Below are positions 29,174 through 43,894 of a stretch of DNA of 64,000 nt, piece by piece. Each line of letters opens with the position of its first letter. Within the stretch, counting starts at the first letter, position 1. Source of the DNA: Dehalococcoidales bacterium (GTDB lineage Bacteria > Chloroflexota > Dehalococcoidia > Dehalococcoidales > RBG-16-60-22); the NCBI GenBank assembly GCA_016930185.1, contig JAFGHK010000033.1, positions 4,034 to 68,033 on the forward strand, written 5' to 3'. Below the pieces are notes generated by a model. That model ran no database searches, was not told the DNA's origin, and worked only from the letters and a program-made list of their open reading frames with translations. A program made the position numbers and the translations under genes.

Positions 29174-29191
29174 ACGGCAGAAAGGCAAAAA

Positions 29192-31072: not shown

Positions 31073-31092
31073 AAAACTAAAGGAGAAGTAAA

Positions 31093-32084: not shown

Positions 32085-33257
32085 ATGTTGAAATCATTAA
32101 AATGGTTCGCCCTACTCTTAGTATTGCTTCTTTTCGTAACGTCGTGCGGAGGAGCCGTCAATGAATCAACTACGCAGGCAACGCCCACACAGACAACACC
32201 TCCACAAACACCAACAACATCAACGGCAGTCACACCAACAAATGGTGTTGGAGATGAACCTACTGAAGAACCATCTGATTCAGAACCGCTAATTACGTTT
32301 AAGGCGGCGGGGGTTGGGTCACACAACTATTTTACCTTCGAGATTGTAAATAACAGATTGTTATATCAGGCAATCAGGTACGATTACTACCCATTGGACA
32401 GCGACTCTATCAATAATATCAGGCCGGGTAACTATATCGCTTATGTCGGTCAGCTCTTTAATACGAGTAACGACTGCTTCATGGTTTATGTTTCCAACGG
32501 CAAGCTTTACTATAAGGTAATCGACCCCTATGCCATTCCTGGACCCGAGCCGGTAGACAGCATGGGCGCAGTCCACGAGGGAATACTCGAAGGCTATGCG
32601 ACGTCTATTACCATGAACTACGTAAGGTTCACCGACCGGGAGGAATATGGTGTACGGGTGAACTGGACGGATAATTACGGAAAAGGCCATTATGCGGTAA
32701 TCGACCAGTGGGAAGGGATTACCGAACAGGGCTCCTCGGTAGCCGACGACCGACCCCAGTTAGTTGACCCTATCGCTCAAGGCCGGGTAGTGCGCCCAGC
32801 CGAATACCTAGAAGACTGGAAACAAACACAAGAGTCGGCAGCGCCGGGCGTTGTCGTTAACTGGGTAAAGGAAGACGAAAATCATCTCGAGCTGAAGTTT
32901 GATAGCGATGGAGGTACTGTTACCGGTTCGTACTGGTGGCGACATTCTATGGACTTCATGTACCCATATGCAGAAGCCGGCTGGCCTACCACGACTATTA
33001 TCATGACTCAAATTGGCGACTTAACCGGTACTTACTCAGGAGGCGAAACAGGCCACTTCGAAGGTTACGTCACTGGGACCAGAACCGGAGCCTTTAATGG
33101 CGTCATCACCGAAAAAGCCAACGGTATTATTGAGGGCACCTGGACGGCGGAGATGGATGCCGCTGGGCATATTACAGGAGTGATGCACTACATGGTTATC
33201 TGTACCGAAGAAACCTATGAAGATTGGCTGGATTTCGAGGCCACACTGTTAGAATAA
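32085..33257 (+). CDS. hypothetical lipoprotein with a Thr/Pro-rich linker
   Basis: 390 aa with the lipobox LLFVTSCGG followed by TQATPTQTTPPQTPTTSTAVTPT. I recognise no domain. Confidence 0.5.
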   Translation: MLKSLKWFALLLVLLLFVTSCGGAVNESTTQATPTQTTPPQTPTTSTAVTPTNGVGDEPTEEPSDSEPLITFKAAGVGSHNYFTFEIVNNRLLYQAIRYDYYPLDSDSINNIRPGNYIAYVGQLFNTSNDCFMVYVSNGKLYYKVIDPYAIPGPEPVDSMGAVHEGILEGYATSITMNYVRFTDREEYGVRVNWTDNYGKGHYAVIDQWEGITEQGSSVADDRPQLVDPIAQGRVVRPAEYLEDWKQTQESAAPGVVVNWVKEDENHLELKFDSDGGTVTGSYWWRHSMDFMYPYAEAGWPTTTIIMTQIGDLTGTYSGGETGHFEGYVTGTRTGAFNGVITEKANGIIEGTWTAEMDAAGHITGVMHYMVICTEETYEDWLDFEATLLE

Positions 33258-33585
33258 TAATTTCCAAAGTATTTAGTGCATTGCGTATATCTATACGACA
33301 TTCCTGTTCTTTTTTACAACTTTTCAGGGAACAACCAGCATAATGCGCACCTCTGTTTGACACTTTTACGCTTTTCTGGTATTTTATAGACTAGAGATTT
33401 GTTTATATAACAATATTAATATTTATATAAATCATTATGCGAGTTTAACTTTGTTCTTTCTTTCAAGAGTCGTATGCGGTAAGTCCTTCACCTTAACTAA
33501 AAACTCTTTGTATGAATCAGTAAGGCTCGCGGCCGATTCTTCCACTTACCGGACATGGGAAAGGGCATAAGAAGGAGTTTTTAAG

Positions 33586-34347
33586 ATGAGATGGGGTATG
33601 GTCATCAACCTGAAAAAATGCACTCGCTGCCACGCATGCATCGCTGCTTGCCGAATTGAACACTTTCTACCTATGGGCATGAACTGGCCACGCCTGATTG
33701 CCTGGGAAACCGATGTCCCCGGCGAAGAACTCACGACCATCCCCGTTCGCTGCAATCAATGCAAGGATGCCCCCTGTGTCGAGGTGTGCCCTGCCGAGGC
33801 TACCAAGAAACGCGAGGACGGCATTGTGTATGTCGATAATGATATTTGTGTCGGCTGCCGCTACTGTATTATCGCCTGCCCTTACCAGAACCGCACCTTC
33901 TTATCCCGCGATAAAGACCCCGGTTACTTCCCGGGTTATGAGCGGACGCGCTTTGAGAAGGCCGGCCGTAAGATTTATCCGCATGTTGTCGGGACGACCG
34001 AAAAATGTGATTTCTGCATGGAAAGAATCGATGCCGGTCTGGCAAAAGGGTTGGTCCCGGGCAAGGACCGTGAGGCTACACCGGCCTGCGTAAACACCTG
34101 CCAGTCGAGGGCACTAACCTTCGGCGATCTTGACGACCCGGAATCGGAAGTGTCAAAACTGATTAAAGAGCAAAACGCTTTTCAGCTTCATCCCGAGTAC
34201 GGCACCGACCCCGCCGTATATTATATCGATGGTAAAATAGGCAATGCGCCTTCTAATATCGCCCCCCGGGAGGAACAGACCGCTTCGCACATACAACACC
34301 TAAGCACAATGGAGGAACGGGCGAAACAGATCTTCGGTAAAAAATAA
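33586..34347 (+). CDS. 4Fe-4S ferredoxin-type electron-transfer subunit (DmsB/PsrB-like) of a complex iron-sulfur molybdoenzyme
   Basis: 253 aa with four Cys clusters (CTRCHACIAAC, CNQCKDAPCVEVCP, CVGCRYCIIACP, CDFC..CVNTC). No signal peptide is present. Confidence 0.85.
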   Translation: MRWGMVINLKKCTRCHACIAACRIEHFLPMGMNWPRLIAWETDVPGEELTTIPVRCNQCKDAPCVEVCPAEATKKREDGIVYVDNDICVGCRYCIIACPYQNRTFLSRDKDPGYFPGYERTRFEKAGRKIYPHVVGTTEKCDFCMERIDAGLAKGLVPGKDREATPACVNTCQSRALTFGDLDDPESEVSKLIKEQNAFQLHPEYGTDPAVYYIDGKIGNAPSNIAPREEQTASHIQHLSTMEERAKQIFGKK

Positions 34348-34359
34348 GGAGGGCTTACA

Positions 34360-35304
34360 ATGTCCCAAATGGCAACTCGCCAGTGGATGACCACCCATGA
34401 GTGGATGGTAAAACCCATGCACCAGAGAGAGTGGATTGAAAGACGCGGTATCATGATATGGATTGCCGAGACCTTTACCAGCTTGGGCGCAGGTTTATAC
34501 CTTGTCTCGCTGTTTATCAACAGCTGGTGGGGCCTACTCGTGGGGTGGTTGATTATCATGTTCCTTAAACTCCCCCTCCATATTGCCTACTTCGGCAAGC
34601 CCTTGCGGTTCTATCGCACGTTACCGCCTTTTTCAAATGCCTGGAAAACATCCTGGTTCGCCCGGGGCATCCTGTTTTCCGTCTTTTTCGGCACTTTCGG
34701 CTTTGTTCAACTTGTCTTTGGCCAGCCTGACCTCGCCAATCTAATCGGGAATTCGATAGCTAATCCCATTTATTATACCTTCGGTGTGCTGGCCGGTATT
34801 AGCGCCGTAGGCGTAGGCATCTATGGCGGATTCATCATGAACTATGTTAAAGGGATTCCGTTCTGGAACCAGGGACTTCTGCCTGTAGTGTTCATACTAG
34901 CCGGAGTTGCCGACGGATTCGGCCTGGCGATGGCTGTCGGCTTGGCAGGCGGCGATGCTAGCGTGTCGTGGGCAGAAACTGGCAGCAGCTATCTGCTGAT
35001 TATCAATGTGCTATTGATAATAGTCTATCTTATCAGTGCCCGATATACCTCTGAAGTGGCTAAAATATCAGTTAAAGAGCTTCTCACCGGCCCGTCAGCC
35101 TTTATGTTCTGGGGGGGACTGGTAACGCTCGGGATGGTTGTACCTGCGGCGATTTCAGTGGTTAGTCTTTTCAGCGGAGAGATCCCCACCGTGCTGCTGA
35201 TAATCGCCATCGTTGCGCATACATTGGGAGCCTTTGCCCTTAAATACTGCCTTTTGAAAGAAGGAATTTACCGGCCTCTATTACCGAGAGTTGCCGCATA
35301 TTAA
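34360..35304 (+). CDS. NrfD/PsrC-like polytopic membrane anchor subunit
   Basis: 314 aa and about 8 TM helices. It sits between the FeS and molybdopterin subunit genes, and its size and hydropathy are typical of the NrfD family. Confidence 0.7.
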   Translation: MSQMATRQWMTTHEWMVKPMHQREWIERRGIMIWIAETFTSLGAGLYLVSLFINSWWGLLVGWLIIMFLKLPLHIAYFGKPLRFYRTLPPFSNAWKTSWFARGILFSVFFGTFGFVQLVFGQPDLANLIGNSIANPIYYTFGVLAGISAVGVGIYGGFIMNYVKGIPFWNQGLLPVVFILAGVADGFGLAMAVGLAGGDASVSWAETGSSYLLIINVLLIIVYLISARYTSEVAKISVKELLTGPSAFMFWGGLVTLGMVVPAAISVVSLFSGEIPTVLLIIAIVAHTLGAFALKYCLLKEGIYRPLLPRVAAY

Positions 35305-35363
35305 GACCATTAACGTTAATAAAAATATAGGTATCATATTTGATATGCAGTCTGGAGTTATAA

Positions 35364-37562
35364 ATGGCTGAAAAGAAAATTATAAAAACCACCTGTAAGA
35401 GTTGCCACGGTGGCTGCGGGGTTTTGGTTGAAGTCACCGACGGTGTAATCACACACATAGAAGGGAACCCGGAATCCGCCACCCGCGGCACGATGTGCGC
35501 TAAGGGCTTGTCCAGTATCCAGCACATCGATAACCCCTACCGTATTACCCACCCTTACAAGAGGACCGGCGAGAAGGGCGAAGGTAAGTGGAAACAGATA
35601 AGCTGGGACGAAGCGCTGGACACGATTGCCGCTAAAATCAAAGAGGCCTCCGAAAAATACGGCCCCTGGACGGTAGCTACCTCACAGGGGACTGGCCGGG
35701 GCTATAACCGCTATGTCCACCGCTTTTCCCGCTCGATGGGCTCCGCCAATGTTATTTCACCGGGCTACATTTGCCACAGTCCCCGCATAGGCCTTTATGG
35801 CCTGATTACCGGCTACGGTCGGCTTTACTGCGATTATCATGGGTGGGGCGGTGTATTCCCCAAAACGCAGATATCCTGGGCCAAGCAGCTTGAAATCAGC
35901 AGCGCAGACTCCGAGATGGCCTACTGGTATACAAAATCGCTGGACTACTGTAAAAATCTTATAATAGTAGACCCACGAGCGACCGCATTTACGTCACGAG
36001 CTACACTTTGGCTACAAATCCGTCCCGGCACGGATGCCGCTCTCGCCCTGGGCATGATTAACATCATAATTCAGGAAGGCCTTTGGGATAAAGAATTCGT
36101 AGAAAATTGGACCTACGGTTTTGAGGAACTTAAAAACCGTGCGGCGGAGTACCCGGTTGATAAAGTCTCGGAAATAACCTGGATACCCAAGGAAAAAATA
36201 ATTCAGGCAGCTCGCCTGTTCGCCCAGGACACCCCGGGTGTTATTCAAATCGGCAGCTCTTTAGAGCGGCAGGCTAACTGCGGCCAAACCATACGCGCTA
36301 TTATCAACCTGCTCGGCATCACCGGCAATATAGAAAGACCCGGCAGTATGATAAGCTGGGTACTGCCAGAGACCGGCCTGATTGAAGATGTTTTCAATGA
36401 AATCCCCCTTACCGATGAAATGAGGTCGCACATCTACGGCGGCGATAAATTTAAAATGGGTGCGGCGCGTACCTGTAATCCAGACACCATTATCAGAGAG
36501 TTAAATAAGGGAGAAAAGCCTATCCGCGTCTGGATAAGCGTCGGCGGCCAGCAGATTGTACACCTGGCCAGCACCCAGCAAGTCGTAGAAGGTCTAAAAA
36601 ATCTAGATTTTCTGGTGCAGGTCGACCAGTTCTGGGGCCCGATGGCTGAAATGGCGGATATAGTCCTGCCTTCCGCACACTGGCTGGAGTTAGACGATAT
36701 TTACGATATGCACCCTCGTTTCATGATAGAAGCGCATAATAAGTGCGTAGAACCGCCGGGCGAAGCCATGTCCGACGCCTGGATTTTTAATGAAATCGGG
36801 CGGCGCGTTGTACCCGAATACTGGTTTAAAGACGTCGAGACCTTGCTCGATCATGAGCTAAGAAAAGCGCCTATCACCTGGAAGAAGTTCAGTGAGCGAA
36901 CCGTTTCCGGCTGCTTTGGCCCGGACCAGAAATATTATAAATATAAGACCGACTACTGGCGCAAGGGGGGAGGCTTCCCCACGCCCACCGGCAAGATGGA
37001 GCTTTATTCGACAGTGCTGGAAAACCTGGGCTATGACCCGCTGCCTTTCTTTAAAGAGCCTGGCGAGAGTCCCTATTCAACACCGGAACTAGCCAAGGAA
37101 TACCCATTGGTGCTGACCACCGGGTTCCGTTCACCGTTCTATTTCCTAGCACAATACCGCAACATCCCCTGGCTGCGTACCTTTATGGAATATCCCACGA
37201 TGCAGATTAATCCTAAAACCGCCAAAGAGCTGGGTATTGAAGACGGCGATTTCGTATGGTTAGAGTCTCCGCGCGGTAAAATTATACAGAAAGCCAGGCT
37301 GTTCCCGGGTATCGACCCGCGAGTCGTGGCGGCCACTGCCAACTGGTTCTATCCTGAAGCGCCGGCACAGGGTTACCGCGGCGTGTTTATTTCCAACCCC
37401 AATATTCTTACTAATGCCAATTACCAGGACCCCATGTACGGTTCACCGGACCTGACGTGCCTGATATGCAAGGTATATAAATGCAAACCGGAGGAACTGA
37501 AAGACCCGAAATATTCGGATATCTTCATCAAGGAACATGGGGGCAAGCCGTGGGCATGGTAG
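35364..37562 (+). CDS. molybdopterin (bis-MGD) oxidoreductase catalytic subunit, no Tat signal
   Basis: 732 aa. The N-terminal [4Fe-4S] motif is CKSCHGGCGVLVEV..GTMCAKG. The molybdopterin oxidoreductase body and the C-terminal MopB_CT-like barrel (..VWLESPRGKIIQKARLFPGIDPRVV) are present. There is no RR-motif leader. Confidence 0.85.
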   Translation: MAEKKIIKTTCKSCHGGCGVLVEVTDGVITHIEGNPESATRGTMCAKGLSSIQHIDNPYRITHPYKRTGEKGEGKWKQISWDEALDTIAAKIKEASEKYGPWTVATSQGTGRGYNRYVHRFSRSMGSANVISPGYICHSPRIGLYGLITGYGRLYCDYHGWGGVFPKTQISWAKQLEISSADSEMAYWYTKSLDYCKNLIIVDPRATAFTSRATLWLQIRPGTDAALALGMINIIIQEGLWDKEFVENWTYGFEELKNRAAEYPVDKVSEITWIPKEKIIQAARLFAQDTPGVIQIGSSLERQANCGQTIRAIINLLGITGNIERPGSMISWVLPETGLIEDVFNEIPLTDEMRSHIYGGDKFKMGAARTCNPDTIIRELNKGEKPIRVWISVGGQQIVHLASTQQVVEGLKNLDFLVQVDQFWGPMAEMADIVLPSAHWLELDDIYDMHPRFMIEAHNKCVEPPGEAMSDAWIFNEIGRRVVPEYWFKDVETLLDHELRKAPITWKKFSERTVSGCFGPDQKYYKYKTDYWRKGGGFPTPTGKMELYSTVLENLGYDPLPFFKEPGESPYSTPELAKEYPLVLTTGFRSPFYFLAQYRNIPWLRTFMEYPTMQINPKTAKELGIEDGDFVWLESPRGKIIQKARLFPGIDPRVVAATANWFYPEAPAQGYRGVFISNPNILTNANYQDPMYGSPDLTCLICKVYKCKPEELKDPKYSDIFIKEHGGKPWAW

Positions 37563-38671
37563 ACAATTCCGAAATCATCTTCGATAGCACGAAGATGAAA
37601 AATATAGGCGGGCCTAAGAAAAAAGCCTTGCCCCGCTACTACTTTCCGCTCATAATCGGCATCATTATCGCCGAAGCGGTTATCCTGGGTTTTGTACTCT
37701 TCGACATTTTTCCACTCACGCATGATTTTGTAGTTCATTCCTATTCACAGCACGCTTCTTATGTTGAGGCTTCCGATGTCACACAAATATCGGTAACTAT
37801 CACCAGGTGGTTTTTCTTCCTGCTGACCGCAGGCGTCCTCATCCCCACGACCCTGATTATTATCATGGAGGTTACCCGCCGTGTAATAATAGCCCGCAAA
37901 GGTAAAGCCAGCGCCTGGGACGATGAATACTCCTGGCTGGATAAACTCGACCGTACACCAAAGACTCCAGCTGATGCAAAAACCCGCGTGGAAGGCGACT
38001 ACATCCGGCGCTTCGATACCCACCAGCGTATCCAGCATTTCGCTTTGATGGTCTCATTTATCGTACTGGCGATAACCGGTTTCTTAAGGGGCTTTCCGGA
38101 CTGGCCGACTTTTCAGTGGTTTACCAGCATCTTCGGCGGCACCGAGGTATTGCGTCTCATCCATGATATCGCCGCCTTTGTCATGATTGCCGACGGTATC
38201 TATCACCTCGGGTATATAGCCTATGGGTATTTCGTGAAACATAAGTCTCCGGTAGCAATGTTCCCAAGCTGGAAAGACCTCAAAGATATCATCCATACTT
38301 TTCTCTGGATATTAGGCATGCACCGGCACGAACCGCAGTACGACCGTTTCCAATACGGCCAGAAGATAGATTACTGGGCGATATTCTGGGGCATGCCGGT
38401 AATGGTAATAACGGGCATAATCATGATGTTCCCCTCCGTTTTCGGCCAGATGGACGGCCAGTGGTTCGCCGTGGTTGCCGCCGCCCACCGCGATGAAGCG
38501 GTCCTCGCCGTTGGATTTATTCTCATCGTGCATATGTATTACGGCCACCTGCAAAAGAGCGCCTTTCCCTTTAATACGGTCATATTCACCGGCAGGATGC
38601 TGAAATCAAAATATAAAGAATGGTTTGGTCGGGAATACGCGCAGATAACTGGCGAAAAAGACCGGGAATAA
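37556..38671 (+). CDS. membrane di-haem cytochrome b-like subunit (FdnI/PhsC-like) with an N-terminal TM extension
   Basis: I prefer the ATG at 37556, which overlaps the upstream TAG (ATGGTAG). The C-terminal ~220 aa read THQRIQHFALMVSFIVLAITGF..IHDIAAFVMIADGIYHLGY..VGFILIVHMYYGHL and carry conserved His in TM helices as in cytochrome b subunits. Confidence 0.65.
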   Translation: MVDNSEIIFDSTKMKNIGGPKKKALPRYYFPLIIGIIIAEAVILGFVLFDIFPLTHDFVVHSYSQHASYVEASDVTQISVTITRWFFFLLTAGVLIPTTLIIIMEVTRRVIIARKGKASAWDDEYSWLDKLDRTPKTPADAKTRVEGDYIRRFDTHQRIQHFALMVSFIVLAITGFLRGFPDWPTFQWFTSIFGGTEVLRLIHDIAAFVMIADGIYHLGYIAYGYFVKHKSPVAMFPSWKDLKDIIHTFLWILGMHRHEPQYDRFQYGQKIDYWAIFWGMPVMVITGIIMMFPSVFGQMDGQWFAVVAAAHRDEAVLAVGFILIVHMYYGHLQKSAFPFNTVIFTGRMLKSKYKEWFGREYAQITGEKDRE

Positions 38672-38704
38672 CTATACTTAATTCATATAACAAGGCAGGT
38701 AAAA

Positions 38705-39640
38705 ATGGCTGGCATCATGCAGCGCTGGATGGGGCAGGGGAACGAGGTGAAATCAAGCTATACCGCCGGCGACCGGCTGGCTGGAGCGCTCGATATTACC
38801 CGGCCTGTCCTTTCGGGGATGGGAGCGCTTGGCGTTGCCGGCGCCGCTGCCCTCGCTAACGGGGGATTTCCTTCCTGGAGTCAGGCGGTTCCAGGTGTTA
38901 TCACCGCCCTGCTGGCTTTTGCCGGCATTCATGCCTTTAACGACTTCGTGGACCAGCGCCGTGACGTGGTCTGCTGGCCTGGCCGGCCGATACCGAGCCA
39001 GCGATTGGCACCGCGCCAGGCTTTACTGCTGACTCTCGCGTCTTTTGCTGCTGCTCTGGTTATCGTGTGGTTCGTTTTTAATCCCACCTGCTTTGTTGTC
39101 TCGGTAGTTGCCATCGCCTTAAGCTGTCTCTATTCAGGTTATCTAAGGGACAGGGTCGGCTATCTTATCCTCCCCCCTATTGAGGCGATGCTCTGGCTCT
39201 GCGGCTGGACGGCCTTCTCGCCGAATACACTGTTTACCTCCTGGGAACCGTGGGCATTGTGGCTGTTCTCGGTAACCTGGCAGGCCGGGCACATCATGGT
39301 TTATTCTCCTCTGCACCCCATACAGCACGTCAAGGGTGCAAAACTAACTCAAGTGCCGGCTTTCATTAAAAGGACGTCTCCGAAAGCGGCAACCGTTTTG
39401 GGTTTTATCTTTTTATGTATGGCTGCCGGGGTAGGCATCTACCTGGGCTTCCTGTTCAACCTGGGTCTGCTTTACCTGATACCGACGGGCATGATGGCTT
39501 TGCTTGCGCTGGTAATCAGCTTTAACTTTATGCAGGACTCCGAGAATTTCAACAAGGGGATTAAAGCTTTTTCTTTCGCAACCTATTTCATGCTTGTTGC
39601 CCGTATTTTAATCCTGCTAAGCGTTTTCTTATTATATTAG
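38705..39640 (+). CDS. UbiA-family aromatic prenyltransferase
   Basis: 311 aa and about 8-9 TM helices, with the first Asp-rich motif HAFNDFVDQRRD (NDxxDxxxD). Confidence 0.8.
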   Translation: MAGIMQRWMGQGNEVKSSYTAGDRLAGALDITRPVLSGMGALGVAGAAALANGGFPSWSQAVPGVITALLAFAGIHAFNDFVDQRRDVVCWPGRPIPSQRLAPRQALLLTLASFAAALVIVWFVFNPTCFVVSVVAIALSCLYSGYLRDRVGYLILPPIEAMLWLCGWTAFSPNTLFTSWEPWALWLFSVTWQAGHIMVYSPLHPIQHVKGAKLTQVPAFIKRTSPKAATVLGFIFLCMAAGVGIYLGFLFNLGLLYLIPTGMMALLALVISFNFMQDSENFNKGIKAFSFATYFMLVARILILLSVFLLY

Positions 39641-39649
39641 GAGATTTTT

Positions 39650-40849
39650 TTGGCAAACTCCAAGCCCGGAAGACGGGTAAAGTCACTCTATAATCCTCCT
39701 TCGCTGCTATTCAAACAGGCCTTTTCTATTGCATACCATGGATGGATTAGCGGATGGGCCGGACTCCCCGGCTGGATGCTTAAGGGCAAAAAAGTCCTCG
39801 CCACATCCGCCGGCGCCACCGCCATCGGCTGTACCGGTTATCCCACTCATGTAGTCTGGGAGGTGACCACACGCTGTAATCTTAACTGCATCCACTGCTA
39901 CGCGAGTTCGGTGGACTCAATACAGGCGGAGCTAACGACCGCCGAGGGTAAAAAGCTACTGGATCAAATAGCCATAGTCGAAGATATACGCATGATTGTC
40001 ATCACTGGCGGCGAGCCTCTCTTAAGAGAGGACATCTTTGAGCTCATGGAGCATGCCGGGAAGTTAGGTTTTCATATCGTCTTCAGCACCAACGGGACAC
40101 TGCTGACACCGGATATGGCTAAAGACCTGGCACGGCTGGGCGTAGCCAATTTTTCTATCAGTCTGGACGGTTTTACCAGCGATTGTCACGAGTCGATACG
40201 ACGCAAGGAGGGCTGTTTTCAGGGCGCACTGGATGGCATCAAGGCCGCCGCACAGACCGGCGTCTGCCTGCAGGTCAATTTCACGGCGATGAAACAGAAC
40301 CTGGCCGAGTTGCCCGGTGTAATCGACCTTGCCGAATCACTGAAAGCGGATATCATCATGATTTTTCAGGCTATCCCTCCTCAAAAAGAAGGAGTGTCTC
40401 TTGAACTGGATGCGGAAGAACAAATGCACCTCATCAGGACAATCGCGGAAAAACAGAAAAAGACCCGCGCCCTGATAATGCCGGTCTGCTGCCCCGAGTA
40501 CTGGCCCTGGCTAGTGGAACAAAAGCGGTTTTCGCTAGGTAAGAGTATCCGGGAGAAAGCACTCGCCGGCTGCGGTGCCGGCCGCGGCTTTAGCTACATC
40601 AGGTTCGACGGCGAAGTATGGCCGTGCAATTTTATCCCCCTTTCAGCGGGTAACGTACGCCTGACGCCGTTCCAGGATATCTGGAACAACTCTCCGCTGC
40701 TGCAGGAGTTCCGCGGACAAACGCGGCGGTTGAAAGATACCTGCGGAGAATGCAGACATCAGAGTATCTGCGGCGGCTGCCGCGGTCGGGCCTTTGCCCA
40801 CACGTCAGACCCCTTTGCAGCCGACTCCGCCTGCCTGTTGGATCACTGA
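39650..40849 (+). CDS. radical SAM protein with a C-terminal SPASM domain
   Basis: 399 aa. The radical-SAM motif is CNLNCIHCY. The auxiliary-cluster region reads CGAGRGFSYIRFDGEVWPCNF..CGECRHQSICGGCRGRAF. Confidence 0.85.
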   Translation: MANSKPGRRVKSLYNPPSLLFKQAFSIAYHGWISGWAGLPGWMLKGKKVLATSAGATAIGCTGYPTHVVWEVTTRCNLNCIHCYASSVDSIQAELTTAEGKKLLDQIAIVEDIRMIVITGGEPLLREDIFELMEHAGKLGFHIVFSTNGTLLTPDMAKDLARLGVANFSISLDGFTSDCHESIRRKEGCFQGALDGIKAAAQTGVCLQVNFTAMKQNLAELPGVIDLAESLKADIIMIFQAIPPQKEGVSLELDAEEQMHLIRTIAEKQKKTRALIMPVCCPEYWPWLVEQKRFSLGKSIREKALAGCGAGRGFSYIRFDGEVWPCNFIPLSAGNVRLTPFQDIWNNSPLLQEFRGQTRRLKDTCGECRHQSICGGCRGRAFAHTSDPFAADSACLLDH

Positions 40850-40864
40850 AAACGGATTTAGTGT

Positions 40865-41554
40865 ATGATAAGGTTTATTCAAGGTGAACGCATCCCCTTA
40901 AGCGAAGACTCCTTTATCAACACCAGCACTGCGCAATTTTACGATGAACACGCCCGGCGCTTCATGGGGTCGGTCTATCGCCGGTTTGCCGTAAAGGCCG
41001 CGGGTATTAAAACTCCTGGAAAGCGGGTTCTGGACCTCGGCACCGGCAGCGGCCGTTTGGCAATCGAGCTGGCAAAAGCCCGCCCCGACTGGTTTATTAC
41101 AGGCAGCGATATCTCGGAAGAAATGCTGAAAATCGCCCGAACGAATGCCTCCCAAGCCGCTTTAACTGATAGAATCGATTTTCACCAGACCCCTGCGGAA
41201 TCGCTTCTCTTCACCGACGGCTGTTTCGACCTGGTGGTTAGCAACTCATCTCTCCATCTCTGGTCAGACCCCATCAAAGTATTTAACGAAATCGCCAGAG
41301 TAACCATGCCGGGCAGGTATTGCTTAATCTGGGATAATATGAGGTGTAACATACTTAATCCGTTCTTAAACCTGCTTGGATATGCAATGGGCATGAGTTC
41401 ATCGCAGCGCCGACTTTGGTTGCAGGCCATCCGTTCGTCTTACACTATCGGGGAGGTGAAGGCGCTCTTAAGAGAATCGGACCTCAAAGATGCCCGCGCG
41501 AAAATAGAACCCAGGTTTCTTGAGATTAGCATACAATGGAAAAAGCCCGTGTAA
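40865..41554 (+). CDS. class I SAM-dependent methyltransferase
   Basis: 229 aa with motif I VLDLGTGSGRLAIELA and a post-I acidic residue in GSDISEEML. Confidence 0.8.
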   Translation: MIRFIQGERIPLSEDSFINTSTAQFYDEHARRFMGSVYRRFAVKAAGIKTPGKRVLDLGTGSGRLAIELAKARPDWFITGSDISEEMLKIARTNASQAALTDRIDFHQTPAESLLFTDGCFDLVVSNSSLHLWSDPIKVFNEIARVTMPGRYCLIWDNMRCNILNPFLNLLGYAMGMSSSQRRLWLQAIRSSYTIGEVKALLRESDLKDARAKIEPRFLEISIQWKKPV

Positions 41555-41650: not shown

Positions 41651-41680
41651 TTGACAATAATAAGCACTCTATTTTATAAT
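41651..41680 (+). promoter_or_regulatory. candidate promoter of the fur/zur-family gene (TTGACA-N18-TATAAT)
   Basis: TTGACA at 41651-41656 and TATAAT at 41675-41680. It is followed immediately by the repeat element at 41681-41699. Confidence 0.45.
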
Positions 41681-41699
41681 TGCAACCAGGTGCAATAAC
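41681..41699 (+). promoter_or_regulatory. candidate Fur/Zur operator copy 1 (TGCAA-N5-TGCAATAAC)
   Basis: TGCAAccaggTGCAATAAC lies directly downstream of the -10 box. The same architecture recurs at 42132-42150 upstream of the metal ABC importer. Confidence 0.45.
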
Positions 41700-41700
41700 A

Positions 41701-42114
41701 ATGAGTTGTGTTTCAACACTAAAGGCAAAAGGACTAAAACTGACTCCGCAAAGGATGATGATTGTTGATATCATCCACGACGCTAAGGAGCATCTAACCG
41801 CTGATGAGATAATTAGGCATATCCAGGCGAATATGCCCGGGGTCAATAAATCAACTGTCTATCGTACTCTATCACTTCTGGAACAATACGGCTGTGTATA
41901 TAAAAGTGAACTCAGTGAAGAATTGATATATCACCATGATGAAGTAGGCCACCATCATCACCTGATGTGCAGTCGGTGCGGAAATATAATCAAATGTGAT
42001 GAAGACCTGTTTATACCTTTAAAAAATCTGCTTATGGAGAAATATGGGTTCGACGCGAATTTCAAGCACATAGTAATGAGCGGATTTTGCGAAAAATGTA
42101 AAAATAATAATTAA
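41701..42114 (+). CDS. Fur-family metal-responsive repressor (Zur-like)
   Basis: The ATG at 41701 gives MSCVSTLKAKGLKLTPQRMMIVDIIHD..LTADEI..VNKSTVYRTL. The C-terminal region has HHHH..CSRCG..CEKC metal sites. Confidence 0.85.
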   Translation: MSCVSTLKAKGLKLTPQRMMIVDIIHDAKEHLTADEIIRHIQANMPGVNKSTVYRTLSLLEQYGCVYKSELSEELIYHHDEVGHHHHLMCSRCGNIIKCDEDLFIPLKNLLMEKYGFDANFKHIVMSGFCEKCKNNN

Positions 42115-42131
42115 ATTTTTTTCCTTATTAC

Positions 42132-42150
42132 TGCAATTTGTTGCAATAAC
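42132..42150 (+). promoter_or_regulatory. candidate Fur/Zur operator copy 2 (TGCAA-N5-TGCAATAAC)
   Basis: TGCAAtttgtTGCAATAAC lies 76 nt upstream of the substrate-binding protein ATG. The inner TGCAATTTGTTGCA is also an inverted repeat, and TATGAT follows at 42151-42156. Confidence 0.45.
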
Positions 42151-42225
42151 TATGATATGCAAATTTCCCTGGAGGCATATCAGGATAAAGCAAGTACTAA
42201 GTAAAGTTTGAGAGGAGAAAAAGGT

Positions 42226-43071
42226 ATGAAGAAATTAGGGTTTATTTTTGCCGTTATTCTGGTTTTAAGTCTGTCAGTGGGTATTTTCTTTAGCGGATGC
42301 GCCGCAGAAGACTCCGCAAAATTAAAGGTGGTAACCAGCACATCCCTGATTGCCCAGATAGCTGAACGTATCGGTGGCGATATGGTCAGCGTAACTAATG
42401 TAGTTCCTCCGGCGCAATGTCCCGGTCATTTTGATATCAAGCCGGGTGATGTTCAGATGCTGGCTAACGCACAGCTTTTCATTATCCATAACTGGCAGGG
42501 AGAAAAGTTCTCCGATGAATTGATTGCCTCGGCTAATAACGAAGACCTTGTTAAGGTTATGATTGAAGTGCCGGGCAACTGGATGACACCTCAGGTACAG
42601 CGTGAAGCCGCTGACAAAATCGCCGAAGCTCTTATTCAAATAGACCCCGATAACAGTACTTACTATCAAAATTCCGCTGATGAATATAAGGCCGAGGTAA
42701 CGGCCAAAGAATCGGAAATAAATTCAAGGCTAAGCCAGGTAAATTTATCAGCAATCAATGTCCTGTGCGATGAGCAGCAGACAGGTTTCGTTACGTGGAC
42801 AGGTCTTAATATAATCGCCACCTACGGCAGACCGGAGACATTCACTCCACAGGTGATCATAGACCTGGTTGACCAGGGTAGAGAAGGCAATGTTACCCTG
42901 ATTATCGACAACATGCAGTCGGGTGGAGAATCAGGCAAGTCCCTGGCAGAAGAACTCGGGGTAGCGCACATCGTACTTTCAAATTTCCCCGGTGGCTATG
43001 AGAATACCGATACATGGGAACAGGCTATCGATTTCAACATCGATTTGATTTTAAATGCAATCAATGATTAG
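42226..43071 (+). CDS. metal (Zn/Mn-type) ABC transporter substrate-binding lipoprotein, ZnuA/TroA family
   Basis: The ATG at 42226 gives MKKLGFIFAVILVLSLSVGIFFSGC, which contains a lipobox. The core motif VVTSTSLIAQIAERIGGD..CPGHFDIKPGD is typical of cluster A-I binding proteins. Confidence 0.75.
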   Translation: MKKLGFIFAVILVLSLSVGIFFSGCAAEDSAKLKVVTSTSLIAQIAERIGGDMVSVTNVVPPAQCPGHFDIKPGDVQMLANAQLFIIHNWQGEKFSDELIASANNEDLVKVMIEVPGNWMTPQVQREAADKIAEALIQIDPDNSTYYQNSADEYKAEVTAKESEINSRLSQVNLSAINVLCDEQQTGFVTWTGLNIIATYGRPETFTPQVIIDLVDQGREGNVTLIIDNMQSGGESGKSLAEELGVAHIVLSNFPGGYENTDTWEQAIDFNIDLILNAIND

Positions 43072-43080
43072 GATGCAATT

Positions 43081-43875
43081 ATGTTAGACACAAATAACAC
43101 AAACAGCTACTCCATAGACATCAATAACGCCGTAGTCTCTTTCCGAGAGGATATTGCGTTAAGAGGTGTTTCTCTCAAAGTAAAACATGGTGAATTCATT
43201 GGAGTCGTCGGTCCCAACGGAGCCGGCAAGACCACGTTACTTACTATCGTTAATGGGATGGGCAAGTTGCTCCACGGTCAGGTGATTGTACTCGGCCAAA
43301 ATCTGACTTCTGGTAACGGTCATTCACTGCGGAAAAAGGTCGGCTATGTAGCGCAGGTGGAGAGCATAGACCCCAGAATGCCGATGATTGTTCGCGAGGT
43401 AGCGATGATAGGTCGCTACGGCCGCCTTGGTTTGTTCAAGAGGCCGGGGAAAACCGATTGGGAAATTGTGGACAAGGCTCTAGAGTTGGTAGGCATGACG
43501 CATCTGGCAAGGCGTCCCATCGGGCATTTGTCCGGAGGAGAACAGCAGCGAGTCGCCATTGCACGCTGTCTGGTGCAGGAGCCTGAAATTTTCCTGCTTG
43601 ACGAGCCTACGGCCGCGCTGGATTGGAAAGCGAAAACCGACATCATGGAATTAGTCAAGCGTATACACGACTTGAGGGGACTGACCACTCTGTTTGTGAC
43701 TCATGATTTAAGCGCTCTGCCCATTGCCTGCGACCGTGTCATTCTGATGAAAGACGGCCTTATCTGGAACGAAGGTCCGCCCAAGGGTTTGCTGACCGAT
43801 GAAAAACTCGGGCAGCTTTATGATTTACCCGTTTCCGAGGTGGAAAAAAGGCGCCGAGAAGCTGTAATAATCTAG
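43081..43875 (+). CDS. metal ABC transporter ATP-binding protein (ZnuC-like)
   Basis: Walker A GPNGAGKTT, signature LSGGEQQRVAIARCL, Walker B FLLDEP. Confidence 0.85.
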   Translation: MLDTNNTNSYSIDINNAVVSFREDIALRGVSLKVKHGEFIGVVGPNGAGKTTLLTIVNGMGKLLHGQVIVLGQNLTSGNGHSLRKKVGYVAQVESIDPRMPMIVREVAMIGRYGRLGLFKRPGKTDWEIVDKALELVGMTHLARRPIGHLSGGEQQRVAIARCLVQEPEIFLLDEPTAALDWKAKTDIMELVKRIHDLRGLTTLFVTHDLSALPIACDRVILMKDGLIWNEGPPKGLLTDEKLGQLYDLPVSEVEKRRREAVII

Positions 43876-43894
43876 TATTATAAGGTCTGAATTT

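What the first reader, a model, noticed from the sequence alone, without database searches (positions are those of the whole stretch)
33586..41554. Cytoplasm-facing molybdoenzyme with two different membrane subunits, fused operonically to a UbiA/radical-SAM-SPASM/methyltransferase cassette
The gene order is FeS subunit, NrfD-like anchor, Mo subunit, cytochrome b-like protein, which is atypical compared with the usual A-B-C order. Neither the Mo subunit (MAEKKIIKTTCKSCHGGCG..) nor the FeS subunit has a Tat or Sec leader, so the catalytic dimer should sit on the cytoplasmic face. The Mo gene stop overlaps the cytochrome b start (ATGGTAG). Three biosynthetic-type genes then follow with gaps of only 33, 9 and 15 nt: a UbiA prenyltransferase (NDFVDQRRD), a radical SAM/SPASM enzyme and a SAM methyltransferase. 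Prenylation, radical chemistry and methylation are the logic of quinone or modified-haem biosynthesis. The operon may therefore encode an oxidoreductase together with its own lipid-soluble or haem-derived cofactor pathway.
Basis: partly seen in the sequence, partly recalled or inferred. Interest (0 to 1): 0.6.

Follow-up and report, generated by a model that had tools for sequence, protein, structure and literature searches.

The report
Inward-facing molybdoenzyme plus prenyl-cofactor cassette
An uncultured Dehalococcoidales bacterium has one seven-gene operon that joins an inward-facing, membrane-anchored molybdenum/tungsten enzyme of a widespread untested family to a rare gene set (cytochrome b, odd prenyltransferase, methyltransferase, optional radical-SAM enzyme) that probably makes and uses an undescribed membrane electron carrier.

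Summary
Seven co-directional genes (33586-41554) encode a four-cluster FeS protein, an NrfD-type anchor, a bis-MGD subunit, a dihaem cytochrome b, a UbiA-family enzyme, a radical-SAM/SPASM enzyme and a SAM methyltransferase. Gaps are 12, 59, -7, 33, 9 and 15 nt.

The complex faces the cytoplasm:
- No upstream start is possible for the Mo or FeS gene.
- The NrfD anchor has 16 Lys/Arg on the N-terminal side and none on the other. This bias holds in 70 homologues.

The operon is a fusion of two separable modules.
- **Module A (FeS-NrfD-Mo):** it keeps this order in all 77 related loci that cover all three genes, across six phyla. Its closest solved relative is acetylene hydratase, but it lacks that enzyme's catalytic Asp. 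Elsewhere it sits beside polyphenol-degradation genes.
- **Module B (cytochrome b or FixCX, UbiA, methyltransferase, variable radical-SAM):** it is rare and also occurs without module A, always next to quinone-reactive proteins.

The SPASM gene is dispensable. None of nine genomes that carry the cassette has MenB, and only one has a partial MqnA/D hit.

Best reading: a quinone-linked phenolic-transforming enzyme parked beside a pathway for a novel prenylated, methylated carrier. A haem-derived product is not excluded.

The parts
33357..33385 (+). Promoter-like site (TTGACA-17-TATTTT, with TG) in the 328-nt AT-rich spacer upstream of the operon
   Evidence: This is a consensus match only. No Rfam riboswitch was found in 33150-33700.
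33586..34347 (+). Four-cluster [4Fe-4S] electron-transfer subunit (PsrB/DsrO-like) with no signal peptide
   Evidence: Fer4_11, and DsrO at 180.5 bits against a cut-off of 200, matching from profile position 43, which skips DsrO's leader. Four Cys groups are visible in the sequence. A stop lies five codons upstream of the ATG. It is 63-97% identical in all related loci.
34360..35304 (+). NrfD/PsrC-type eight-helix membrane anchor, predicted inverted (both termini in the cytoplasm)
   Evidence: PF03916, 59 bits. Lys+Arg count is 16 on the N-terminal-side loops and 0 on the other side. In 70 homologues the medians are 14 (range 10-23) and 0 (range 0-2). PsrC has its termini on the P side (PMC8076601). 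No PDB sequence match was found.
35364..37562 (+). Bis-MGD Mo/W catalytic subunit, acetylene-hydratase-like clade, Tat-less; predicted metal ligand Cys137
   Evidence: Best PDB match is 2e7z acetylene hydratase (337 bits), ahead of HDCR FdhF (219) and PsrA (185). Cys137 aligns with the W ligand Cys141. The catalytic Asp13 is His15 here, Ile142 is His138 and Trp179 is Ala181. C11, C14, H15, C18, C45, C137, H138 and the insert YCDYHGWGG are invariant in 12 sequences from four phyla. No NCBIfam equivalog cut-off is reached. The family is about 70% identical across six phyla.
37556..38671 (+). Dihaem cytochrome b (FdnI/HydC/CbcL type) with two extra N-terminal helices; its start overlaps the Mo stop (ATGGTAG)
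   Evidence: PF01292, 59.7 bits. Six helices, with Lys+Arg 34 versus 1, so N-in. His161, His203, His311 and His326 are conserved in 19 sequences. It is the only PF01292 protein above cut-off in the genome. Homologues of about 40% identity in other Dehalococcoidia sit beside multihaem c cytochromes.
38705..39640 (+). Divergent UbiA-superfamily prenyltransferase of a rare subfamily
   Evidence: PF01040, 93 bits. Best NCBIfam matches are PRK12884 (78 bits), DGGGP synthase (55) and haem O synthase (55), all far below cut-off; MenA does not match at all. The first motif N79/D83/D87 is intact. The second Asp-rich motif is missing. W192-Q-A-G-H196 aligns with CyoE's WQMPH. The AF2 model has pLDDT 83.9 and TM 0.64-0.67 to DGGGPS and ApUbiA. 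Only 19 of 1.84 billion representative proteins match at E<=1e-30, and 6 of 401 class genomes have it.
39650..40849 (+). Radical SAM/SPASM enzyme, AhbD/NirJ2-like, with an N-terminal extension of about 65 aa; an accessory member of the cassette
   Evidence: PF04055 and PF13186 match. AhbD scores 262.7 and NirJ2 256.6 against cut-offs of 500; TIGR04053 scores 252 against 395. It is present in 7 of 11 orthologous operons. Where it is missing there is no orthologue anywhere in the genome (best 31-37% identity).
40865..41554 (+). Class I SAM methyltransferase, only weakly UbiE-like
   Evidence: Methyltransf_31 scores 90 bits. MenG/UbiE subfamily scores 65.6 against a cut-off of 158. A genuine UbiE (216.8 bits) lies elsewhere in the genome. 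The gene is present in all 11 orthologous operons that reach this far, and in every cassette variant that extends far enough.
41651..41680 (+). Perfect sigma-70-type promoter of the next unit (fur and a metal ABC importer); marks the 3' boundary
   Evidence: and the sequence.

Best explanation
The seven genes form one operon built from two modules that are separable in evolution.

**Module A (FeS-NrfD-Mo)** is a three-subunit complex iron-sulfur molybdo- or tungsto-enzyme.
- Its catalytic and FeS subunits sit on the cytoplasmic face, on an inverted NrfD anchor.
- It exchanges electrons between a cytoplasmic substrate and a membrane quinone-type carrier, through a Cys-ligated bis-MGD site, one FS0 cluster and four FeS clusters.
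- The architecture is shown from sequence.
- The substrate is inferred from gene neighbourhoods in other phyla: a hydroxylated aromatic (tri- or tetrahydroxybenzene or catechol type) that is either hydroxylated with water or reductively dehydroxylated.

**Module B (cytochrome b, UbiA, optional SPASM radical-SAM, methyltransferase)** is inferred to do two things.
- It makes a prenylated and then methylated lipid-soluble redox carrier from an imported or unknown head group.
- It supplies a dihaem cytochrome b that reacts with that carrier. This may move electrons across the membrane, as NarI does for nitrate reductase, so that the inward-facing enzyme can be coupled to proton-motive force.

The SPASM enzyme adds a non-essential tailoring step. 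The two modules have been placed next to each other at least twice in Dehalococcoidia. This suggests they work together, but neither depends strictly on the other.
For: **Operon**
- Gaps of 12, 59, -7, 33, 9 and 15 nt.
- Boundaries as.
- Synteny in 12 orthologous loci.

**Inward orientation**
- No possible leader on the Mo or FeS gene.
- N-termini invariant in 12 homologues.
- NrfD Lys+Arg 16 versus 0; family medians 14 versus 0 in 70 sequences.
- This is opposite to PsrC and like the proposed SoeC.

**Clade**
- Acetylene hydratase is by far the best solved match, and Cys137 aligns with the metal ligand.
- Catechol dehydroxylases are reported to share that nearest neighbour (PMC7028382).

**Phenolic substrate**
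- The triad is directly followed by an AhtL-like transhydroxylase plus FeS gene in 17 loci of Desulfobacterota, Acidobacteriota, SAR324 and others.
- In Actinomycetota it lies among IclR, SDR, BKACE, 3-hydroxyacyl-CoA dehydrogenase and AFOR genes, which matches the phloroglucinol pathway of PMC10470551.
- In the Dehalococcoidales paralogue it sits beside a carboxylesterase, a URO-D-like methyltransferase and a TPP enzyme.

**Module B is a unit that sits next to quinone-reactive proteins**
- SdhC-SdhD-UbiA-2TM-CytB-MT in one f18 genome (L087). UbiA-small ORF-CytB-MT after MDH and fumarase in a second (L088). UbiA-CytB-MT on a short contig in a third (L089).
- FixC-FixX-CytB-UbiA-MT-rSAM-rSAM in a congener.
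- UbiA, a NarI/CCG fusion and MT in another genome.
- The NrfD triad in this window.
- Related cytochromes b lacking UbiA pair with multihaem c cytochromes, so they act as quinol dehydrogenases.

**Need for a carrier**
- The window genome (92% complete) has no MqnA/D, no MenB above cut-off and no ALAD.
- None of the nine cassette genomes has MenB, and only one has a partial MqnA/D hit. A cassette-less relative in the same family does have MenB, at 363 bits.

**Independent joinings**
- L021's Mo subunit is sister to the window clade, yet its UbiA groups with the FixCX type.
- The window UbiA is sister (support 99) to the triad-less CytB type.
Against: - No product, substrate or transcript has been observed.
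- The UbiA is no closer to MenA, UbiA or MqnP than to DGGGP synthase or haem O synthase. It lacks the second Asp-rich motif, so even prenyl transfer to an aromatic ring is an inference.
- The methyltransferase match to UbiE covers only the Rossmann core.
- The genome also carries a MenA-like gene, a genuine UbiE and a HemN-like gene. An ordinary menaquinone made from scavenged DHNA could therefore serve NrfD and the cytochrome b without any new carrier.
- Most triads have no cassette, and several cassettes have no triad. In the class sample only 2 of 6 UbiA-positive genomes have a true triad.
- The polyphenol link comes from other phyla and from the paralogue, not from this operon's own neighbours. 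Those are NuoEF-like genes, a lipoprotein, fur and a metal importer.
- Whether the cytochrome b binds the triad physically is unknown.
- The MenB/Mqn tally has few, related genomes and only three controls.
Confidence: 0.5

Rival explanations
1. The cassette makes a modified, prenylated haem rather than a quinone. In this reading the UbiA acts as a haem-O-synthase-like enzyme, the AhbD/NirJ-like radical-SAM enzyme and the methyltransferase remodel tetrapyrrole side chains, and the product is inserted into the adjacent cytochrome b.
For: - W192-Q-x-x-H196 aligns with the CyoE WQMPH signature, and like CyoE the protein lacks a full second Asp-rich motif.
- The haem O synthase HMM aligns end to end, at 54.9 bits.
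- Five of the six best NCBIfam hits of the radical-SAM enzyme are tetrapyrrole enzymes: AhbD, NirJ2, AhbC, NirJ and NirJ1.
- The only PF01292 cytochrome b in the genome lies directly upstream.
- In clade I the UbiA always travels with this cytochrome b.
Against: - The radical-SAM gene is dispensable: 4 of 11 operons lack it, with no orthologue elsewhere in those genomes.
- Four cassette loci have FixCX and no cytochrome b at all.
- Cytochrome b homologues are found in 27 of 401 class genomes but the UbiA in only 6, so the cytochrome does not generally need a special haem.
- The genome has no haem-copper oxidase and no ALAD.
- Scores are far below the haem O synthase (210) and AhbD (500) cut-offs.
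- The feature common to all cassette neighbours is quinone reactivity, not haem.
Confidence: 0.15
2. The two modules are only neighbours. The triad uses the cell's ordinary scavenged menaquinone. The cytB-UbiA-MT genes serve an unrelated membrane function, such as a lipid or another respiratory branch, and landed downstream by rearrangement.
For: - The modules occur apart in most genomes.
- The trees are incongruent.
- A MenA-like gene and a genuine UbiE exist elsewhere in the genome.
- The closest solved folds of the UbiA are the lipid-synthesis enzyme DGGGP synthase and an unassigned archaeal UbiA homologue.
Against: - Two different cassette types (CytB type and FixCX type) sit directly downstream of triads from at least three to four distinct Mo lineages. 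This is hard to explain without selection.
- The Mo and cytB genes overlap by 7 nt, and the arrangement is kept in a clade of at least 12 loci down to about 75% protein identity.
Confidence: 0.2
3. The triad is an inward-facing enzyme for an inorganic sulfur, selenium or arsenic compound (SoeABC-like or Psr/Phs-like), not for aromatics.
For: - It has the same three-subunit, cytoplasm-facing design proposed for SoeABC.
- The FeS subunit is nearest to DsrO, QrcC, ArrB and TtrB.
- The Mo subunit matches PhsA at 267 bits.
Against: - Acetylene hydratase (337 bits) is well ahead of PsrA (185) among solved structures.
- No sulfur-metabolism genes recur near the triad in 80 loci. Transhydroxylase, phloroglucinol-pathway-like, esterase and demethylase-like genes do recur.
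- All NCBIfam scores are far below cut-off.
Confidence: 0.1

Closest known systems
SoeABC sulfite:quinone oxidoreductase (Allochromatium vinosum, Aquifex aeolicus)
   Same: Mo subunit, four-cluster FeS subunit and NrfD-type anchor, with both soluble subunits lacking Tat signals and proposed to face the cytoplasm on an inverted anchor (PMC8076601).
   Different: The gene order here is B-C-A. The catalytic subunit is acetylene-hydratase-like and 732 aa. The neighbourhoods point to aromatics rather than sulfur. A cytochrome b and a biosynthetic cassette are appended. No SoeA sequence was available for direct comparison.
Acetylene hydratase (Pelobacter/Syntrophotalea acetylenica, PDB 2e7z)
   Same: It is the best solved relative at 337 bits. 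It has the same size, the same N-terminal [4Fe-4S] motif, the same Cys metal ligand position and no Tat signal.
   Different: The catalytic Asp13 is His15 here, Ile142 is His138 and Trp179 is Ala181. The family has its own insert, YCDYHGWGG. It has FeS and membrane partners, so it is a redox enzyme rather than a stand-alone hydratase.
Catechol dehydroxylases of gut Actinobacteria (Dadh, Hcdh, Cadh of Eggerthella lenta; Dodh of Gordonibacter)
   Same: They are bis-MGD enzymes whose nearest characterised relative is also acetylene hydratase. The E. lenta type has FeS and membrane-anchor partners. They act on hydroxylated aromatics, and environmental homologues are reported in aromatic degraders (PMC7028382).
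   Different: The E. lenta enzymes carry Tat signals, face outward and are larger (about 130 kDa for Hcdh). The Gordonibacter enzymes are Tat-less but soluble. This family is Tat-less and membrane-anchored. No dehydroxylase sequence was available, so clade membership is untested.
NarGHI nitrate reductase
   Same: An inward-facing Mo enzyme wired to a dihaem cytochrome b that oxidises quinol at the outer face. It is the model for how the cytochrome b here could make the complex electrogenic.
   Different: NarI belongs to a different cytochrome b family and NarGHI has no NrfD subunit. The analogy is functional only and was not tested.
CbcL/FdnI/HydC-type dihaem cytochromes b
   Same: PF01292 fold, four conserved His in the FdnI pattern, N-in topology. 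Homologues of about 40% identity in other Dehalococcoidia are paired with multihaem c cytochromes, as in CbcL-type quinol dehydrogenases.
   Different: The window protein has two extra N-terminal helices and no c-type cytochrome partner. It is encoded between a Mo enzyme and a UbiA gene.
MenA + MenG/UbiE (last two steps of menaquinone synthesis)
   Same: The same logic of a membrane prenyltransferase followed by a SAM methyltransferase.
   Different: MenA models do not match the window UbiA at all, and the methyltransferase scores 65.6 against a cut-off of 158. A MenA-like gene and a genuine UbiE lie elsewhere in the genome.
Haem O synthase (CyoE/CtaB) with AhbD-type radical SAM enzymes
   Same: The WQxxH motif, the weak second Asp motif and end-to-end HMM alignment. 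The radical-SAM enzyme is nearest to AhbD and NirJ2.
   Different: Scores are about a quarter to a half of the cut-offs. The genome has no haem-copper oxidase and no tetrapyrrole pathway. The radical-SAM gene is optional.

Membership tests
Complex iron-sulfur molybdoenzyme (Mo + FeS + NrfD anchor) | Bis-MGD catalytic subunit with an N-terminal FS0 Cys motif | tested here: met
   The three Pfam domains match. C11-x2-C14-x3-C18...C45 is invariant.
Complex iron-sulfur molybdoenzyme (Mo + FeS + NrfD anchor) | Four-cluster ferredoxin subunit and NrfD-type anchor encoded alongside | tested here: met
   16 Cys in four groups. PF03916 scores 59 bits. All three genes are adjacent in all 77 loci that cover all three; three more are cut by a contig end.
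Complex iron-sulfur molybdoenzyme (Mo + FeS + NrfD anchor) | Tat export of the soluble subunits to the outer face (the usual case) | tested here: not met
   No leader is possible. The anchor topology is inverted.
SoeABC | Cytoplasm-facing Mo and FeS subunits on an inverted NrfD-like subunit | tested here: met
   compared with PMC8076601. This is a prediction from sequence, not an experiment.
SoeABC | SoeA-type catalytic subunit and sulfite oxidation | not testable with these tools
   No SoeA reference sequence or model was at hand. The best matches are acetylene hydratase and PhsA.
Acetylene hydratase | Cys ligand to W | tested here: met
   Cys137 aligns with Cys141.
Acetylene hydratase | Catalytic Asp13 next to the second cluster Cys | tested here: not met
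   His15, invariant in the family.
Acetylene hydratase | Hydrophobic substrate ring (Ile142, Trp179 and others) and a stand-alone soluble enzyme | tested here: not met
   Ile142 is His138 and Trp179 is Ala181. FeS and NrfD partners are present.
Catechol dehydroxylase class (Dadh/Hcdh/Dodh) | Bis-MGD enzyme whose nearest characterised relative is acetylene hydratase | tested here: met
   for this protein; PMC7028382 for the class.
Catechol dehydroxylase class (Dadh/Hcdh/Dodh) | Falls inside the dehydroxylase clade; reductive dehydroxylation activity | not testable with these tools
   No dehydroxylase sequences are held in the PDB or in any reachable collection. Architecture fits neither described subtype: the Tat-plus-anchor type or the Tat-less soluble type.
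UbiA prenyltransferase superfamily | Pfam PF01040 above cut-off and the UbiA fold | tested here: met
   93 bits against a cut-off of 34.2. TM 0.64-0.67 to 7bpu, 6m31 and 4od4.
UbiA prenyltransferase superfamily | Two Asp-rich motifs (NxxxDxxxD and a second DxxxD) | tested here: inconclusive
   The first motif is intact (N79, D83, D87). The second is absent: no invariant Asp follows D149 and the region reads HPIQH. CyoE has only one Asp there.
Quinone prenyltransferases MenA / UbiA / MqnP | NCBIfam equivalog score above cut-off | tested here: not met
   MenA gives no match. UbiA scores 35 against 275. MqnP_DT scores 29.6 against 430 in the lineage-2 homologue only.
Haem O synthase (CyoE/CtaB) | Equivalog score above cut-off; a haem-copper oxidase in the genome | tested here: not met
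   54.9 against 210. No COX1 in the genome. The WQxxH motif is shared.
AhbD haem b synthase / NirJ | Radical-SAM CxxxCxxC motif plus SPASM domain | tested here: met
   PF04055 at 99.9 bits and PF13186 at 45.4 bits.
AhbD haem b synthase / NirJ | Equivalog score above cut-off; a tetrapyrrole pathway in the genome | tested here: not met
   262.7 and 256.6 against 500. No ALAD.
UbiE/MenG C-methyltransferase | Subfamily score above cut-off | tested here: not met
   65.6 against 158.35, covering the core only. The genome's real UbiE scores 216.8.
FdnI/HydC-type dihaem cytochrome b | PF01292 above cut-off and four haem-ligand His (one on each of core helices 1 and 2, two on helix 4) | tested here: met
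   59.7 against 30.1. H161, H203, H311 and H326 are conserved in 19 sequences. The FdnI equivalog cut-offs are not reached.

The most novel reading that the evidence does not exclude
Some Dehalococcoidia lack the known routes to the naphthoquinone head group and to tetrapyrroles. In this reading they make a previously unknown prenylated, methylated membrane redox carrier from a scavenged or enzymatically tailored plant phenolic. The inward-facing acetylene-hydratase-like Mo/W enzyme would add or remove ring hydroxyls without oxygen. It would act either as a step in making the head group or as the main respiratory user of the new carrier. This would be an oxygen-independent route to a new class of quinone, tied directly to anaerobic polyphenol turnover.
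Probability: 0.2. Interest if true: 0.9.

Novelty: new variant of a known kind. Interest (0 to 1): 0.6.

Why it matters
**The enzyme family**
- The FeS-NrfD-Mo family is about 70% identical across Chloroflexota, Actinomycetota, Desulfobacterota, Acidobacteriota, SAR324 and Proteobacteria. No member has a reported activity that I could find.
- Its neighbours place it in the oxygen-free breakdown of tannin- and lignin-derived phenolics. That process bears on carbon storage in peat and sediments.
- It would be only the second proposed type of inward-facing NrfD-anchored molybdoenzyme, after SoeABC.

**The cassette**
- It could explain how non-dehalogenating Dehalococcoidia run quinone-type enzymes (NrfD, cytochrome b, SdhCD, FixCX) without a recognisable head-group pathway.
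- The hypothesis is easy to test: express three or four genes and look for a new lipid.

**If the ordinary explanation holds**
- If scavenged DHNA and normal menaquinone suffice, the result still documents a recurrent, modular pairing that annotation pipelines now label only as 'molybdopterin oxidoreductase' and '4-hydroxybenzoate polyprenyltransferase'.

Tried and rejected
- **Riboswitch:** a Moco or other riboswitch in the 328-nt upstream spacer. None was found at gathering threshold or at E<=1.
- **PDB sequence search:** NrfD gave no hits and UbiA only noise.
- **UbiA acceptor from structure:** the AF2 model is good, but Foldseek returns only generic UbiA folds, and no haem O synthase structure is held. 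This did not discriminate.
- **Thauera and Azoarcus papers:** PMC4579451 and PMC6328779, on the 3,5-dihydroxybenzoate and resorcinol clusters, are not held. I could not check whether their homologue belongs to this family.
- **Placing the Mo subunit against Dadh, Dodh or SoeA:** no such sequences were reachable.
- **Phyletic co-occurrence:** UbiA and Mo-family hits coincide in 5 of 6 genomes (Fisher p = 1.5e-9). I rejected this as evidence for the triad. The f18 genomes' 54-58% homologues are not triads: they are soluble, alone or with a small FeS gene. The genomes also fall into only two or three lineages.
- **Automatic accessory labels on the Mo tree:** these were wrong for several loci because of my crude gene calling. 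The counts in this report use the tblastn maps.
- **NuoE/NuoF/HydC-like genes upstream:** I considered these as the enzyme's redox partner. They are syntenic only in the two closest relatives (L007, L008), so this remains unsupported.

Full report
**1. What is there.**

The window is a contig of a 1.8-Mb, 104-contig, 92%-complete Dehalococcoidales genome. The nearest public relatives are Dehalococcoidales MAGs with 91-94% identical proteins.

Seven co-directional ORFs lie between 33586 and 41554, with the following assignments:

| Gene | Coordinates | Assignment |
|---|---|---|
| FeS | 33586-34347 | four-cluster ferredoxin-type subunit; nearest DsrO, 180 bits against cut-off 200 |
| NrfD | 34360-35304 | NrfD-type membrane protein |
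| Mo | 35364-37562 | 732-aa bis-MGD subunit |
| CytB | 37556-38671 | PF01292 cytochrome b |
| UbiA | 38705-39640 | UbiA-superfamily protein |
| rSAM | 39650-40849 | radical-SAM/SPASM protein |
| MT | 40865-41554 | class I methyltransferase |

- No protein reaches the curated cut-off of any named NCBIfam equivalog.
- The gaps are 12, 59, -7 (ATGGTAG), 33, 9 and 15 nt.
- Upstream is a 328-nt AT-rich spacer with one promoter-like site.
- Downstream, a perfect -35/-10 pair precedes fur.
- No riboswitch is present.

**2. Orientation.**

- An in-frame stop abuts the Mo start codon, and another lies five codons before the FeS start. No leader can be added.
- In an alignment of 12 family members from four phyla, M1 and the C11-K-S-C14-H15-G-G-C18 motif are invariant.
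- The anchor has eight hydrophobic segments. Lys+Arg count is 16 on the N-terminal-side loops and 0 on the other side (18 versus 0 by my hand count of the loops). Across 70 homologues the medians are 14 (range 10-23) and 0 (range 0-2).
- PsrC has both termini on the positive side, and SoeC is thought to be the inverted exception (PMC8076601).
- Three independent sequence features therefore agree that the soluble dimer is cytoplasmic. This is a strong prediction, not a measurement.

**3. The Mo subunit.**

- The best solved relative is acetylene hydratase at 337 bits. HDCR FdhF scores 219, PsrA 185 and FdhH 168.
- Cys137 aligns with the tungsten ligand Cys141.
- The catalytic Asp13 is His15, Ile142 is His138 and Trp179 is Ala181.
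- The family carries an invariant insert, YCDYHGWGG.
- It is therefore not an acetylene hydratase, but it belongs to the surrounding, largely uncharacterised radiation.
- Maini Rekdal et al. place the catechol dehydroxylases of gut Actinobacteria in that same radiation. They note many environmental homologues in aromatic degraders (PMC7028382).
- Hug et al. had already seen 'acetylene hydratase-like and pyrogallol hydroxytransferase' genes on Chloroflexi scaffolds.

**4. The triad is a conserved unit with a polyphenol neighbourhood.**

A pattern scan of species-representative genomes returned 80 loci with 68-94% identical Mo subunits. They come from Chloroflexota, Actinomycetota, Desulfobacterota, Acidobacteriota, SAR324 and Proteobacteria.

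FeS-NrfD-Mo occurs in that order in all 77 loci that cover all three genes; three more are cut by a contig end. The 'atypical order' is a family trait.

Clustering the neighbours gave three contexts:
- **Desulfobacterota, Acidobacteriota and others:** 17 loci have an AhtL-like (pyrogallol-phloroglucinol transhydroxylase-like) large subunit plus FeS gene immediately downstream, often with TRAP transporters.
- **Actinomycetota:** IclR, two SDRs, a BKACE enzyme, a 3-hydroxyacyl-CoA dehydrogenase, an AFOR and an ABC importer. This set matches the reductase, dehydrogenase and triacetate-lyase logic of the phloroglucinol pathway (PMC10470551).
- **The 72%-identical Dehalococcoidales paralogue** (a copy is on contig C48 of this genome): a carboxylesterase, a URO-D-like methyltransferase, a TPP enzyme, a Zn-ADH and LuxR.

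I infer a hydroxylated aromatic substrate. The direction of the reaction is open.

**5. The downstream genes are a second module.**

Within the orthologous clade (at least 87% identity), among loci with enough downstream sequence:
- Twelve of 13 have cytochrome b plus UbiA. L019 does not.
- All 11 that reach further have the methyltransferase.
- Seven of those 11 have the SPASM gene.
- In the four without it, no orthologue exists anywhere in the genome; the best match is 31-37% identical.

Four other Dehalococcoidia loci (L002, L021, L023, L062) follow the triad with a different set: FixC/FixX-like proteins, a 37-42% identical UbiA, usually two 'variant radical SAM' (MSMEG_0568-like) genes, and a 37-40% identical methyltransferase.

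Searching from the UbiA side:
- Only 6 of 401 class genomes have this subfamily.
- Only 19 of 1.84 billion representative proteins match at E<=1e-30.

In the five other genomes the gene is not next to a triad:
- One family-f18 genome (L087) has IDH-MDH-fumarase-SdhC-SdhD-UbiA-(2-TM protein)-CytB-MT.
- A second (L088) shows IDH-MDH-fumarase, then UbiA, a small ORF, CytB and MT.
- A third (L089), on a short contig, has UbiA-CytB-MT.
- A congener of the window organism has MDH-OYE-like-FixC-FixX-CytB-UbiA-MT-rSAM-rSAM.
- One genome has UbiA, a NarI/4Fe-4S/CCG fusion and MT.

**6. Trees.**

- *Mo tree.* The cytochrome-b-type operons form one clade. Its immediate relatives include L019, which has no cassette, and L021, which has the FixCX type. 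Other FixCX-type loci sit in two further parts of the tree.
- *UbiA tree.* The window clade is monophyletic (support 100) and sister (99) to the triad-less f18 CytB-type genes. L021's UbiA pairs (100) with the triad-less congener locus L091, inside the FixCX clade.

The two gene trees disagree. Module B has therefore been joined to the triad at least twice. This argues for a selective reason to place them together and against strict co-dependence.

**7. What module B might do.**

*The UbiA protein*
- It has the first Asp-rich motif but no second one.
- It carries WQAGH where E. coli CyoE has WQMPH, UbiA has WAVAY and MenA has no counterpart.
- HMM scores are 78 (PRK12884, an unassigned prenyltransferase), 55 (DGGGP synthase) and 55 (haem O synthase). 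MenA gives nothing.
- The AF2 model (pLDDT 83.9) superposes equally on DGGGP synthase and ApUbiA.
- The acceptor cannot be read from the sequence.

*The cytochrome b*
- It has the four His of the FdnI pattern and N-in topology.
- Homologues of about 40% identity occur in 27 of 401 class genomes. In the seven such loci whose neighbours I examined they lie beside multihaem c cytochromes with 6-11 CxxCH motifs. This is the arrangement of CbcL-like quinol dehydrogenases.

*The common thread*
- Every protein found next to UbiA+MT is quinone-reactive: NrfD triad, FdnI-type cytochrome b, FixCX, SdhCD, NarI/CCG fusion. Only some bind haem.

*Genome content*
- The genome lacks MqnA/D, MenB above cut-off, ALAD and COX1.
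- It does have a MenA-like gene, a genuine UbiE and a HemN-like gene on contig C62.
- None of the nine cassette genomes checked has MenB, and one has a partial MqnA/D fragment. Of three cassette-less relatives, one has a genuine MenB.

I therefore favour a quinone-like carrier at roughly 50%. A haem-derived product stays open at about 15%, and mere adjacency at about 20%.

**8. Mechanism proposed.**

*Shown from sequence*
- An inward-facing Cys-ligated bis-MGD subunit with FS0.
- A four-cluster wire.
- An inverted NrfD.
- A dihaem cytochrome b.
- A prenyltransferase-fold enzyme and a methyltransferase.

*Inferred*
- Electrons pass between a cytoplasmic phenolic and a membrane carrier at an N-side NrfD site.
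- The cytochrome b reacts with the same carrier. Because its haems span the membrane, it could separate charge as NarI does.
- UbiA and the methyltransferase make the carrier, and the SPASM enzyme tailors it.

*Unknown*
- Substrate, direction, metal, head group, and whether the cytochrome b docks on the triad.

**9. Comparison and novelty.**

- In architecture the triad works like SoeABC.
- In sequence it is closest to acetylene hydratase.
- In likely chemistry it is closest to the catechol dehydroxylases or the Mo hydroxylases of phenols. It fails a defining test of each, or could not be tested (see the membership table).
- I found no paper describing this family or the cassette in eight full-text searches.
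- Notes from other windows of this scan describe the same family and both cassette types. I treated these as leads.
- New here: the UbiA-side census, the two incongruent trees, the evidence that the SPASM gene is dispensable, the multihaem-cytochrome context of the cytochrome b, the CyoE-like motif, and the Men/Mqn/ALAD tallies.
- Verdict: a real, conserved, uncharacterised system. It is a new variant of a known kind, with a moderate chance of hiding a new membrane cofactor.

Noticed in passing
own genome contig C48:26706-30500 (locus L111:6010-9822, minus strand): A second FeS-NrfD-Mo triad in the same genome (Mo 72%, FeS 75%, NrfD 44% identical) with no cytochrome b, UbiA or methyltransferase beside it. 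It belongs to the Dehalococcoidales paralogue clade, whose neighbours elsewhere are a carboxylesterase, a URO-D-like methyltransferase, a TPP enzyme, a Zn-ADH and LuxR.
   Followed up: partly
own genome contig C62 (locus L086:7274-10148): A MenA-like prenyltransferase (154 bits, below cut-off), a genuine UbiE/MenG (216.8 bits) and a convergent HemN-like radical-SAM gene (PRK08629, 384 bits). The genome has no MenB and no MqnA/D, so the organism may depend on an external naphthoate head group. The HemN-like gene could be a menaquinone C-methylase.
   Followed up: partly
whole genome G000: No ALAD (HemB) and no haem-copper oxidase in a 92%-complete genome, yet it encodes a dihaem cytochrome b and an AhbD-like enzyme. 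This implies haem or precursor salvage.
   Followed up: partly
L095:7140-11366, L098:6177-11185, L101:7062-10964, L103:5987-10255, L104:8810-11772, L105:5467-8771: In other Dehalococcoidia, cytochromes b about 40% identical to the window one are flanked by secreted multihaem c cytochromes with 6-11 CxxCH motifs. These look like CbcL-type quinol-to-periplasm or extracellular electron-transfer modules.
   Followed up: partly
window 28676-31809: NuoE-like, NuoF-like (with extra FeS domains) and a 238-aa HydA-N-terminal-like FeS protein, with no catalytic partner in their operon. They are syntenic with the Mo operon only in the two closest relatives (L007, L008).
   Followed up: partly
window 32085-33257: A 390-aa predicted lipoprotein with a Thr/Pro-rich linker and no family match in Pfam. 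It lies between the NuoEF-like genes and the operon and is 76% identical in L007.
   Followed up: no
window 41651-45339: A perfect sigma-70 promoter followed by a Fur-family regulator, a ZnuA-like binding protein, an ABC ATPase and permease, and a second small methyltransferase. This marks the downstream boundary of the operon.
   Followed up: no
L056:19027-20824, L066:18447-19544, L081:19958-21466: Several archaeal-flagellin-family (PF01917) genes and a T2SSF-like gene lie downstream of the paralogous triad in Dehalococcoidales MAGs. This is an archaellum- or pilus-like cluster in a bacterial class.
   Followed up: no
L107:6014-8146, L108:3094-5655, L110:4214-6355: Family-f18 Dehalococcoidia carry 54-58% identical acetylene-hydratase-like Mo subunits with no NrfD anchor, alone or with a small FeS gene. 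This is a soluble version of the same enzyme clade, in genomes that also have the UbiA-CytB-MT cassette.
   Followed up: partly
L014:19006-20579: A further FeS (55%) and NrfD (32%) gene pair without an adjacent Mo subunit lies about 3 kb downstream of the cassette in one orthologous locus.
   Followed up: no
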